50,953 nucleotides of DNA from sequence record MT225100; one strand, given 5' to 3'. This DNA is from Escherichia phage Lys8385Vzw. Below, one piece after another: positions 33,001 to 36,000 of this stretch (position 1 is its first letter; the number at the start of each line of letters is the position of its first letter). The position numbers are program-made.

Positions 33001-36000
33001 TATAAACCCACTCTTCAGCATCTTCTTTCCTGACACCAGGCTCCGTCATTGTCCATGAACCCGCCTGAACCCACGAGATTAGGGGGACTTTTTTAACTGC
33101 GAATATTTCAGGTTTTAGATTTATCTTTGGTTCAGGCGAGCCTTTTCCGCTAACAAGCCACAGAGGATCGCATTTAAGTGCGTTGGCTAGGGCTTGAAGG
33201 TTGGCTCCATTTGGTTGGTAGTCGTCCTTTTCCCATCCAGTAACCGTGACACGGTTCACACCAGTCAAATCAGCCAGTGCTTGTTGTGTCAGGTTCAGTT
33301 CTTTTCGCCTTTGGCGAATACGATCACTCATGTTCATCATGTAGGCAATCCTACCACATGCCCATGTAGGATTCTTGACATTGGCATGTTGGATATCCTA
33401 CATTTCTGCTTAACGTAATTTAACGGGAGACAGAAATGCGGAAATCCGACGTGATTAATTATTTCGGCGGAGTTTGTAAAACCGCCGAAGCCCTAGGTAT
33501 TAAGCATCCGTCTGTTTCAGAGTGGCCTGAGATTATTCCTGAAGGCCGAGCGTACCAGTTAGAAAAAATTACTAACGGGAAACTGAAAGTTGACGTGTCT
33601 TTATATCAAAAGACTAACAGTGCTGCGGCATAAAAACACCACAGAAATGAGGAATTAACCGTGGGTAAAGAACCTGAATGGAAAGTTGATAAACAACCAG
33701 CATGGCTGGTGGCAGCAATACGAAGAACGATTGCTGATTTACCTCATGGCTATGAGGAAGCAGCAGAAATTCTTGGTTTGTATAAATCTGATGATATCAC
33801 CCCAGCAAAAGATCAATTGCATAACAGACTGCGTAGCGGTGGGGATCAAATTTTTCCACTTGAGTGGACCATGGTTTTACAGGATGCCAGTGGTACCAGG
33901 CATGTAACAGATGCAATAGCCCGTCGTAGTAATGGGGTGTTTGTGCCGCTGGTGGTCATTGATGACATTGACAATGGTGACATTAATCAGCGGCTGATGG
34001 AGTCAATAGAATGGATTGGCAAGCATTCCCAGTACTTACGCAAGGCAACTGCTGATGGAGTTATTGACCAGGCTGAGCGTGAGCAAATCGAAGAGAACAG
34101 CTACCAAGTAATGGCGAAGTGGCAGGAGCATTTAACACTGTTATTTCGTGTTTTTTGTGCGCCGGAAAAGAGTAACGCCCGCGAGTGTGCAGCTCCGGGC
34201 GTCGTGGCGTCGATTGCTTCTGGTTGTGGAGAAACTAACGCATGAACAGTTTAACGGCAAATAACCGTTTGTCGCAACAGCTGGTGGTCAGTGTCGCTGA
34301 ACACCTGTTGTTACGGCATGAATGCAGATTACCAAATCACCAGGCTGTAAGTAACCACAGAGAACTTTACCTGACTGTGGGGGGCGAGTTGTGCAGGAAC
34401 TTAACCGCTGGTTTCGTGACGGAAGAGGGCTTTATGTCCATGTTATTCGTTGGGAGCCAGAAACACAGCGCGTTATCTATCTTCGCAAAGACTACCCGCA
34501 TGAGTGCTTTAGTCCTTTGTGGAAATTCAGGCGTGATTTTGTTGAGTGTGAAGGACCACCAGCATATTGATTCTGCAATTCCGGGACGTTACACTGCTCA
34601 GGCACCTTATAAAGCGGGTGCCGGGATTGGCGTCCTGAAATTCGCACATGCGCATAACCGCGCTTCAGCGGTTTTTTTGCGCACGTTTCCTCACATCCAA
34701 ATTATGGTGGGGCGTGCAGGGGCATCGAAAGATGCGCCGGGGTCATGTGCGACCGGTTACGCCAACCCTGTACGTCTCACCACCTCTGTGATTGGCGTCC
34801 CATGTGGTGAGTTTTCAAAATTCGCACATGAGGATGTCACTATGGCAACCACCCCTACCCAAACTCACCCTAAAATTGATGTTATCCATGGGAAGGCTGT
34901 TACCTCTTCTTTGGCCGTTGCCGAATATTTCTGCAAGCAGCACAAAAACGTTATTCAAAAAATCCAGACGCTTGAGTGCTCTGTTGAATTCACTGAGCTG
35001 AATTTTCAGCCCAGTGATTACACCGATTGCACAGGCCGCAAACTCCCTTGTTACCAAATCACCCGCGACGGTTTTGCGTTTCTTGCCATGGGCTTCACGG
35101 GTAAACGTGCTGCCCAGTTCAAAGAGGCATACATCAATGCCTTTAACCAGATGGAGAAACAGCTTTCAAAGCCCTCTGTACCGAGCGACGTTGCACATAA
35201 CGCCAGCGTTCTCTATTCCTACATTTCATCAATTCATCAGGTCTGGTTGCAGCAGCTTTATCCCATGCTGGAAAAAGCTGAATCACCGCTGGCTGTAAGT
35301 CTGTATGACCGAATTAACGATGCGGCATTTCTTGCCCGTCTTATTCATTCGTCGCTGAACTCTTCAGAGGTAAGGGGGCGCAAATGATCCGGAATATTTT
35401 CAAACGATTTACCAATCAGACTTTCCGTTGTCCTCGCCCCGGTCAGTGGTACACCACGCCTGCAGGGCATGTTCTACGTGTTAGCCTGGTGGACCGTGAA
35501 TGTCAGAAGGTGATTTGTGAACCGCTTGGTCGTAATTACCGCGTCAGTATGCCGCTTATAGCCTTTCGCTCCGGAAAAAACATGAAGCATCTCGGAGGTG
35601 CAGCATGAGTATGGAGCTGATGGTTAAAGCGATGAAAATTCGAGTGGGTAATCCATTGCGAAAACTGGTTCTGATCAAGCTGGCTGATAATGCCAGCGAT
35701 CAGGGTGAGTGCTGGCCCAGCTACCAGCATATTGCTGACCAGTGCGAGATTAGCAAACGTTCTGTGATGAATCATATTGCGGCCCTTTGTGAGTCCGGGC
35801 TGGTAAAAAAAGTCACCCGGAAAGGTGAAAAAGGTAACTCAAGTAATATCTATCTCCTTCATCTGGATGGTGCAGGAGATTCACTAGGGGGTAGTGCAAA
35901 TAATTCACTATCTGGTGCAGCAAATTCACCAGGTAGTGCAGGAGTTGCACCAGGGGGTAGTGCAGGAGATTCACCCAGAACCAGTCACTCTTTTGAACCA

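What the first reader, a model, noticed from the sequence alone, without database searches (positions are those of the whole stretch)
35863..35990. Iteron-type origin embedded in the replication initiator gene
Five ~20-bp direct repeats (consensus roughly GTAGTGCAGGAGATTCAC) lie inside the 272-aa HTH replication protein gene, where they encode a Gly/Ser/Ala-rich linker, analogous to lambda ori inside O. Only one obvious replication gene is present, with no clear P/DnaC-like loader.
Basis: partly seen in the sequence, partly recalled or inferred. Interest (0 to 1): 0.45.

Follow-up and report, generated by a model that had tools for sequence, protein, structure and literature searches.

The report
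Replication origin inside phage initiator gene
Five real 21-24 bp repeats inside the replication gene of this Shiga-toxin phage look like the phage's replication origin, a lambda-like layout in a different protein family, followed by a 37-bp DNA block conserved for its nucleotides rather than the peptide it encodes.

Summary
GTGCA-N5-T(T/G)CAC occurs five times in the 51-kb window, all at 35870-35974 (0.29 expected), spaced 24/21/21/24 bp. The sites lie in frame in the linker of the 272-aa HTH_36 replication protein (35605-36423).

Evidence from about 240 related loci shows a DNA element, not a peptide repeat:
- Every relative has 3-8 dyad-symmetric repeats at this position.
- The repeat sequence tracks the recognition helix (AMI 0.73), not the C-terminal domain (0.22).
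- In 32 of 74 non-redundant loci the repeats sit in more than one reading frame.
- Copy number varies from 5 to 8 among near-identical E. coli prophages.

Directly after the array lies a 37-bp block, CCAGAAYCAGTMACTCTYYTGAAYCAGTCAWNGAACC (35975-36011). It shows no synonymous variation in its first seven codons but frequent amino-acid changes. Intact relatives read it in another frame.

No helicase, primase or loader gene is present in the phage. The closest relatives of the C-terminal domain are each followed by a DnaC-like ATPase, so use of host DnaC-DnaB is inferred.

The lambda analogy is supported, but only by computation; nothing has been tested experimentally. This is a new member of a known kind, the uncharacterised "Eru6" replication type. 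The block is the unexplained extra.

The parts
35605..36423 (+). Replication initiator gene (272 aa), the 'Eru6'-type HTH_36 protein of Stx phages
   Evidence: ORF. Pfam HTH_36 at aa 17-67 (44.1 bits) with a weak DnaD_N match. PHROG 270 at 3.3e-88. 99.3% identical to the Eru6 type phage Stx2a_WGPS2.
35605..35865 (+). Coding region of the N-terminal winged-helix DNA-binding domain. The inferred recognition helix SKRSVMNHI is at about aa 50-58 and the wing KGEKGNSSNIY at about aa 72-83.
   Evidence: Pfam match. Weak PDB profile hits to GntR/MarR winged helices and to DnaD-N 2vn2. The helix motif co-varies with iteron class.
35870..35884 (.). Iteron 1, GTGCAGGAGATTCAC
35894..35908 (.). Iteron 2, GTGCAAATAATTCAC
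35915..35929 (.). Iteron 3, GTGCAGCAAATTCAC
35936..35950 (.). Iteron 4, GTGCAGGAGTTGCAC (perfect dyad GTGCA-N5-TGCAC)
   Evidence: matches on both strands
35960..35974 (.). Iteron 5, GTGCAGGAGATTCAC
35952..35958 (.). AGGGGGT tract in the 24-bp spacing before the last iteron. A second copy lies at 35886-35892.
   Evidence: In 74 non-redundant relatives this position reads AGGGGGT in 48 and its reverse complement ACCCCCT in 15.
35975..36011 (+). Family-wide conserved block CCAGAACCAGTCACTCTTTTGAACCAGTCAAAGAATC. It holds two GAAYCAGTCA 10-mers flanking a pyrimidine tract.
   Evidence: Unique in the window. Present with at most 3 mismatches in 28 nt in 159 of the 165 sequences examined (164 loci plus the window). 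No synonymous variation in its first seven codons. Read in another frame in intact relatives. On average the least stable 30-bp window within +/-600 bp.
35978..36028 (+). Direct 10-mer repeats GAACCAGTCA (35978, 35995), GAATCAGTCA (36007) and partial GAACCAATAG (36019), spaced 17, 12 and 12 bp
   Evidence: The number of 12-mers varies among near-identical prophages.
36040..36420 (+). Coding region of the C-terminal domain. It has a small helical core and is inferred to recruit the helicase or its loader.
35384..35608 (+). 74-aa ORF whose stop overlaps the initiator's start codon (PHROG 1153, function unknown)
   Evidence: An ORF sits at this position in SfV (orf38) and cdtI (orf45).
36420..36914 (+). 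PerC-family regulator gene immediately downstream, in the position where relatives carry a loader or helicase gene
   Evidence: Pfam PerC 1.1e-9 and PHROG 1324

Best explanation
The five repeats are iterons, meaning binding sites for dimers of the N-terminal winged-helix domain of the protein whose gene contains them. With the adjacent 37-bp conserved block they form the theta-type replication origin of this Shiga-toxin phage. Proposed sequence of events: transcription from the early right promoter produces the initiator. Its dimers fill the five in-phase sites (21-24 bp apart, so on one face of the helix) and assemble a lambda 'O-some'-like nucleoprotein complex. The strain opens the neighbouring, locally least stable block. 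The C-terminal domain then brings in the replicative helicase. Because the phage has no loader or helicase gene, the helicase is probably host DnaB delivered by host DnaC. What is shown: the repeats, their dyad symmetry and phasing, nucleotide-level selection, co-variation with the recognition helix, modular exchange of C-domains with their partner genes, and absence of a loader gene. What is inferred: binding, strand opening at the block, use of DnaC-DnaB, and origin activity itself.
For: The motif occurs only in the array, against 0.29 expected. In 74 non-redundant relatives from Enterobacteriaceae, Pseudomonas, Aeromonas, Shewanella, Marinomonas, Vibrio and Xenorhabdus there are 2-7 repeats (73 of 74 have at least 3). 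Spacings are 21 bp (104 times), 24 (83), 22 (32) and 23 (29). Dyads include GTGCA-N5-TGCAC, GGGGCAG-N3-CTGCCCC, GTGAC-N5-GTCAC, TGCCG-N5-CGGCA and GTAGGC-N5-GCCTAC. In 32 of 74 loci the repeats occupy more than one reading frame; for example GTGCAGGAG is read as SAGD and as VVQEIH in L088. Iteron class follows the recognition-helix motif: RSV[MIV] with GTGCA, STVK with GGGGC, S[TAS]VR with ATGCC or GTAGGC. The AMI is 0.73 for the helix and 0.22 for C-domain type. Copy number is 5, 6, 7 or 8 among loci with 99-100% identical N-domains. The mosaic joint falls right after the block, and C-domains pair with lambda-P-like, DnaC/IstB-like, DnaB-like or primase-helicase genes. The C-domains closest to the window's (57%, 60% and 39% identity) are followed by a DnaC-like ATPase: confirmed by Pfam for L112; for L118 and L145 inferred from size, and for L145 also a Walker-A motif. 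A family member with a P-like gene lies next to parM/parR on 38-kb circular Arsenophonus phage-plasmids, and carries iterons plus the 10-mers. The principle is established for lambda O, P22 gp18 and phage L gp18 (PMC8022706, PMC7466680).
Against: There is no experimental evidence for binding or for origin activity in this family. The Eru papers state that nothing is known about replication proteins of these phages (PMC8951638). No strongly AT-rich unwinding element lies next to the iterons; the block is 40% GC. There are no exact DnaA boxes (only 1-mismatch matches, at chance frequency) and no IHF consensus nearby. The C-domain fold gave no significant structural match, so helicase recruitment rests on gene-neighbourhood inference. 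Co-variation of helix and iteron is partly confounded by common descent and physical linkage.
Confidence: 0.8

Rival explanations
1. The repeats are initiator-binding sites used only for regulation, such as autorepression, a transcriptional roadblock or copy control by handcuffing. Replication would start elsewhere in the genome.
For: Iterons of plasmid replicons have such roles as well. The array lies inside the transcribed gene, so bound protein could throttle its own expression. No classical AT-rich element is adjacent.
Against: No other iteron-like array or second initiator was seen in the 51-kb genome. The architecture matches lambda, P22 and L origins in position. The block next to the array is conserved as DNA and is the local stability minimum. 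Phage-plasmids place this module beside partition genes.
Confidence: 0.1
2. The repeats are only replication-slippage duplications that encode a flexible Gly/Ser/Ala linker, with no function as DNA.
For: The encoded peptide is low-complexity and copy number varies from 5 to 8 among close relatives, as slippage would produce.
Against: In 32 of 74 relatives the same DNA unit is translated in different frames. The peptides differ completely between classes (GSAGDSP, PSDKMSP, PMPPKSIA, GVGPEST) while dyad symmetry and 21-24-bp phasing are kept. All Ala codons in the array are GCA. The repeat sequence co-varies with the recognition helix.
Confidence: 0.03
3. For the conserved block only: it is kept because it serves as a short homology patch for recombination that shuffles C-terminal domains and partner genes. 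It would not be part of the origin.
For: Sequence conservation collapses within a few bases after the block. Each iteron class is found with 1-8 different C-domain types, and five of the six classes with at least two.
Against: Selection for exchangeability is weak, yet 28 or more nt are held across Gammaproteobacteria. Variation is restricted to T<->C in a pyrimidine tract and a few fixed positions. The 10-mers persist even in the AT-rich Arsenophonus version, where the tract has changed. A functional block would act as a recombination joint as a by-product.
Confidence: 0.07

Closest known systems
oriLambda inside gene O of phage lambda (also the origins in P22 gene 18 and phage L gene 18)
   Same: About 20-bp dyad-symmetric iterons lie in the part of the initiator gene that encodes the linker between an N-terminal DNA-binding domain and a C-terminal recruitment domain. 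Iteron sequence is specific to the N-domain. Iteron number varies between relatives: 4 in lambda and 6 in Stx phages 933W and P27 (PMC7466680); 5-8 here.
   Different: The initiator is not homologous to lambda O (HTH_36, not Phage_rep_O). The iterons are followed by an invariant 37-bp block of 40% GC rather than a strongly AT-rich stretch. No P gene is present in this phage.
'Eru6' (and Eru5) replication regions of Shiga-toxin phages (Fagerlund et al. 2022, PMC8951638)
   Same: The window is this type. It has a Rha/Ash gene followed by the HTH_36 gene to the right of cI/cro, and it is 99.3% identical to the type phage Stx2a_WGPS2. The Eru5 protein (the phi24B 'O' type) shares the N-domain, an iteron array and the block.
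   Different: That work classifies gene content only. It mentions no iterons or origin, and it states that the replication proteins of Eru phages are unstudied.
Iteron plasmid replicons (pSC101, F, R6K, RK2, pPS10)
   Same: Several in-phase initiator-binding repeats sit next to the site of opening. A solo initiator relies on host DnaB/DnaC. A family member occurs beside a par locus on phage-plasmids.
   Different: There is no Rep_3 domain, no adjacent exact DnaA box and no AT-rich 13-mers. The origin lies inside the coding sequence.
Replisome organisers of Gram-positive phages and DnaD (for example SPP1 G38P, whose binding sites lie in its own gene; from general knowledge)
   Same: An N-terminal winged helix of DnaD-N type is followed by a C-terminal domain that matches the loader or helicase encoded next to it. 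PHROG labels for the C-domain include 'DnaD-like helicase loader'.

Membership tests
Lambda-type origin embedded in the initiator gene | Several about 20-bp dyad-symmetric direct repeats inside the initiator gene, between its two domains | tested here: met
   Five GTGCA-N5-TKCAC sites at 35870-35974, encoding aa 88-124 of 272
Lambda-type origin embedded in the initiator gene | The initiator is a lambda O homologue (Pfam Phage_rep_O) | tested here: not met
   The Pfam scan gives HTH_36 and weaker winged-helix matches only
Lambda-type origin embedded in the initiator gene | A strongly A+T-rich unwinding region flanks the iterons | tested here: inconclusive
   The adjacent block is the mean least stable 30-bp window within +/-600 bp in 73 relatives (dG -37.3 against -42 to -45 kcal/mol), but it is 40% GC
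Lambda-type origin embedded in the initiator gene | A partner loader gene (P) lies immediately downstream | tested here: not met
   The downstream gene is PerC-like. No loader or helicase was found among the 30 early-region and regulatory ORFs scanned. Relatives do have P-like, DnaC-like or DnaB-like partners.
Lambda-type origin embedded in the initiator gene | The initiator binds the repeats and the fragment supports initiator-dependent replication | not testable with these tools
   Requires EMSA or footprinting and an origin-cloning assay
HTH_36 / PHROG 270 phage replication initiators | HTH_36 domain above the Pfam gathering score and a full-length match to the PHROG family | tested here: met
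   44.1 bits against a cut-off of 25; PHROG 270 at 3.3e-88 over aa 3-271
Eru6 replication region of Stx phages | A Rha/Ash gene and an HTH_36 gene next to cI/cro in an stx-carrying phage, with near-identity to the type phage Stx2a_WGPS2 | tested here: met
   Rha+Ash at 34242-35387. stxA at 41960-42916. 99.3% identity to AP012537. Definition in PMC8951638.
Plasmid iteron replicons (Rep_3 type) | Rep_3 initiator domain | tested here: not met
   No Rep_3 hit
Plasmid iteron replicons (Rep_3 type) | DnaA boxes and an IHF site beside the iterons | tested here: not met
   Only 1-mismatch DnaA-box matches at chance frequency (35824, 36267). The single IHF consensus match in the window is at 21769.
DnaD-like replisome organisers | DnaD N-terminal winged helix and the DnaD C-terminal fold | tested here: inconclusive

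The most novel reading that the evidence does not exclude
The invariant block after the iterons, made of two to four GAAYCAGTCA 10-mers around a pyrimidine tract, may be a sequence-specific origin element of a kind not described before. It would be the site of strand opening or helicase delivery, recognised by the conserved part of the initiator or by a conserved host factor. It is shared unchanged by origins with at least five different iteron specificities and four different loader or helicase partners across Gammaproteobacteria. It appears to take the place of the usual AT-rich unwinding element.
Probability: 0.45. Interest if true: 0.65.

Novelty: new member of a known kind. Interest (0 to 1): 0.45.

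Why it matters
Replication of Stx phages drives toxin gene dosage. For the non-lambdoid 'Eru' types the literature says nothing is known about the replication proteins (PMC8951638). This analysis places a candidate origin for Eru6, and by homology Eru5, at base-pair resolution.

It also gives the predicted specificity rule linking recognition helix to iteron, and it predicts dependence on host DnaC-DnaB. The gene is present with at least 80% coverage in 897 of 5,426 complete E. coli genomes, where it is named only 'helix-turn-helix domain-containing protein'. The wider family has about 800 clusters at 50% identity.

The conserved block is a compact, directly testable cis element. Separately, Lamassu defence has been reported to sense the lambda origin iterons during replication (PMC12663957), so mapped origins in other phage families are relevant to defence studies too.

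Tried and rejected
- **Rfam:** a scan of 35300-36700 at E<=1 gave only a chance miRNA hit, so there is no support for a known RNA element.
- **Promoters and terminators:** no sigma-70-like promoter in or around the array or block, and one minus-strand terminator-like site at chance level.
- **Host-factor sites:** DnaA-box and IHF consensus searches found nothing specific near the array.
- **Frameshift or internal start in the block:** considered and rejected. The T/C variation destroys any slippery run, and there is no Shine-Dalgarno-like sequence (reasoning).
- **boxA-like reading of CACTCTTTT:** considered and rejected by inspection. The defining G is absent, the tract varies, and it does not explain the flanking 10-mers.
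- **Block outside this gene family:** a scan of IMG/VR gave 120 hits. Of these, 114 lie in ORFs with the same N-domain and the rest are cut by contig ends or frameshifted.
- **Literature:** searches for iterons in HTH_36 or Eru-type phage initiators found no description. Only the general lambda/P22/L principle turned up.
- **One failed call:** a wrong-frame reference was repeated correctly.

Full report
**Context**

The window is a complete Shiga-toxin-converting lambdoid phage. It carries terminase and structural genes on the left, then an integrase (24174-25271), a cI-like repressor (32687-33340, minus strand), cro, a cII-like gene and a Rha/Ash gene. These are followed by a 74-aa ORF, the 272-aa HTH protein (35605-36423) and genes for a PerC-like regulator, Dam, a LexA-DBD protein, RusA and KilA-N. 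Further right are a Q-like antiterminator (40607-41401), stxA (41960-42916) and the lysis genes. The HTH gene is 99-100% identical in many Stx2 phages and in phage cdtI, mEp460, Ayreon and SfV (orf39), and 89% identical in ST64B. It is also 100% identical in E. coli O103 RM8385. Its gene order and its 99.3% identity to Stx2a_WGPS2 make it the 'Eru6' replication type of Fagerlund et al. 2022 (PMC8951638). That paper lists gene content only and says nothing is known about Eru replication proteins.

**Observation**

The five repeats are real.
- GTGCA-N5-T(T/G)CAC occurs at 35870, 35894, 35915, 35936 and 35960 and nowhere else in 51 kb. Shuffles give 0.29 expected, and none of 100 reached the observed count.
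- Spacing is 24, 21, 21 and 24 bp, about two helical turns.
- Copy 4 is a perfect dyad, and the others keep GTG-A...T-CAC.
- The array is in frame and encodes aa 88-124 of the protein. All 7 Ala codons there are GCA, against 6 of 24 elsewhere in the gene.

**DNA element or peptide repeat?**

I collected 80 viral contigs with near-identical N-domains, 80 diverse bacterial genome loci (N-domain 64-86% identical), and further loci from pattern and protein look-ups. In 74 non-redundant loci (<95% N-domain DNA identity) the results were as follows.
- Every gene has 2-7 repeats (73 of 74 have at least 3) at the same place. Spacings are 21 bp (104 times), 24 (83), 22 (32) and 23 (29).
- The repeat sequences fall into classes: GTGCA-N5-TGCAC, GTGA(A/T), GTGAC-N5-GTCAC, GGGGCAG-N3-CTGCCCC, TGCCG-N5-CGGCA and GTAGGC(-N5-GCCTAC). 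Nearly all are dyad-symmetric.
- In 32 of 74 loci, successive copies are 22 or 23 bp apart, so the same DNA unit is translated in different frames.
- The encoded peptides are unrelated between classes.
- Iteron class is predicted by the recognition-helix motif: RSV[MIV] goes with GTGCA/GTGAW/GTGAC, STVK with GGGGC, and S[TAS]VR with ATGCC/GTAGGC. The AMI is 0.73, against only 0.22 for C-terminal domain type. Each class is found with 1-8 different C-domain types, and five of the six classes with at least two.
- Among loci with 99-100% identical N-domains the copy number is 5 (most), 6, 7 or 8, the last in phage cdtI through a 66-bp duplication.

These properties are what is expected of initiator-binding iterons. 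They are not expected of a linker produced by slippage.

**The conserved block**

Immediately after the last iteron, every family member carries CCAGAAYCAGTMACTCTYYTGAAYCAGTCAWNGAACC (window 35975-36011).
- It is present with at most 3 mismatches in 28 nt in 159 of the 165 sequences examined, that is 164 loci plus the window.
- Conservation collapses within a few bases after it, which marks the mosaic joint.
- In the N-domain, conserved amino acids use their commonest codon only 57% of the time, and for nearly all of them every synonymous codon is seen. In the block, the codons AGA ACC AGT CAC TCT TTT GAA show no synonymous variant at all.
- Amino-acid changes in the block are nevertheless common: ACC>ATC in 24 of 74, TTT>TCT/CTT/TTA/CCT in 43 of 74, and CAC>AAC in 10 of 74.
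- Two intact relatives carry the block but read it in another frame, as PESVTLLNQSMNQS or PKSVTLLNQSLNQS in place of RISHSFESVNEPV-type peptides. One nucleotide is missing at the iteron/block junction. They are L368 (288 aa, followed by a DnaB-type helicase) and L369 (365 aa, followed by a lambda-P-like gene).
- The block is therefore selected as nucleotide sequence.
- It occurs only in this gene family: 114 of 120 IMG/VR hits lie in such ORFs, and the rest are truncated or frameshifted.
- On average it is the least stable 30-bp window within +/-600 bp (dG -37.3 against -42 to -45 kcal/mol). It is the absolute minimum in 29 of 73 loci. However, at 40% GC it is not a classical AT-rich element.
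- A further conserved detail is an AGGGGGT tract (48 of 74), or its reverse complement ACCCCCT (15 of 74), before the last iteron.
- I found no Rfam family, promoter, exact DnaA box or IHF site that would explain the block.

**Loader question**

Pfam and PHROG scans of 30 candidate ORFs in the early and regulatory regions found no helicase, primase, or P- or DnaC-type loader. The family is modular. The N-domain, iterons and block are constant, while the C-terminal domain varies and is matched with the next gene:
- lambda-P-like (L119, L108);
- IstB/DnaC-like AAA+ (L128, L086, L112, L137);
- DnaB-like helicase (L134, L004);
- Toprim primase-helicase (L162; phi24B 'P').

The closest relatives of the window's C-domain outside E. 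coli are each followed by a probable DnaC-like ATPase. They are Phytobacter L112 (57% identity), Kosakonia L118 (60%) and a Pseudomonas MAG, L145 (39%). Pfam confirms IstB_IS21 for L112. For L118 (310 aa) and L145 (291 aa) the call rests on size, and for L145 also on a Walker-A motif. I infer that the window's C-domain works with a DnaC-type loader and that this phage uses the host's DnaC-DnaB.

**Supporting circumstance**

Members of the family occur on 28-48-kb circular Arsenophonus 'plasmids'. The one inspected (38 kb) places the initiator and a P-like gene next to parM/parR, and the gene contains GGTGACA-type iterons followed by the GAAYCAGTCA 10-mers. That fits a self-sufficient replicon module.

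**Comparison with what is known**

In function and layout this matches oriLambda in O, and the origins in P22 gene 18 and phage L gene 18 (PMC8022706; PMC7466680). It is not a member of the lambda O family: the domain is HTH_36, with only sub-threshold similarity to DnaD-N. I found no paper or GenBank feature that marks an origin or iterons in SfV, ST64B, Ayreon or phi24B, or in the Eru papers.

**Verdict**

I put about 0.8 on this being the phage origin. The arrangement is a new member of a well-known kind, so its surprise value is moderate. The family-wide, frame-independent 37-bp block is the unexplained part and the most interesting target for experiments.

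Noticed in passing
L001 3260-3440 (phage cdtI); L022, L024, L037 (IMG/VR prophages): Iteron copy number differs among loci whose N-domains are 99-100% identical. Most have 5, L022 and L024 have 6, L037 has 7 and cdtI has 8. The number of GAACCAGTCAAW 12-mers after the block also varies, giving proteins of 268-280 aa.
   Followed up: partly
L236, about 25 nt upstream of the block (contig IMGVR_UViG_2880183892_000004): The G5 tract before the last iteron has only four G in this contig. This puts the N-domain and C-domain in different frames. It may be a pseudogene, a sequencing error or homopolymer slippage.
   Followed up: partly
L368 1501-2367 and L369 1501-2598: Intact family members read the conserved block in another frame (PESVTLLNQSMNQS). 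Both have a YdaT-like gene upstream. One has a DnaB helicase downstream and the other a lambda-P-like gene.
   Followed up: yes
L371 (Arsenophonus nasoniae plasmid paNv_UK9), 420-4312: A 38-kb circular phage-plasmid has parM/parR next to a family initiator and a P-like gene. Ten Arsenophonus plasmid records carry such an initiator.
   Followed up: partly
window 36577-36591: A lone iteron-like site, GTGAAGGAGATACAC (2 mismatches, dyad GTG-N9-CAC), lies inside the downstream PerC-like gene. It may be chance.
   Followed up: no
window 35384-35608: A conserved 74-aa ORF of unknown function (PHROG 1153) has a stop codon overlapping the initiator's start codon. An ORF occupies this position in SfV (orf38) and cdtI (orf45).
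   Followed up: no
window 41960-42916: A Shiga toxin A-subunit gene lies downstream of a Q-like antiterminator (40607-41401). The window is therefore an Stx-converting phage of the Eru6 replication type.
   Followed up: partly
window 20741-20831: A 45-bp tandem repeat (2 copies, 84% matches), with nested 9-bp repeats, lies inside the 439-aa ORF 19790-21109. Its sequence suggests a collagen-like Gly-X-Y stretch in a tail-fibre-type gene.
   Followed up: no
window 49494-49524: A perfect 11-bp tandem repeat, CGCCGTATCGT x2.8, lies just after the 183-aa ORF 48932-49483.
   Followed up: no
window 33363-33404: A 22-bp imperfect direct repeat lies in the cI-cro intergenic region. These are probably operator sites.
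   Followed up: no
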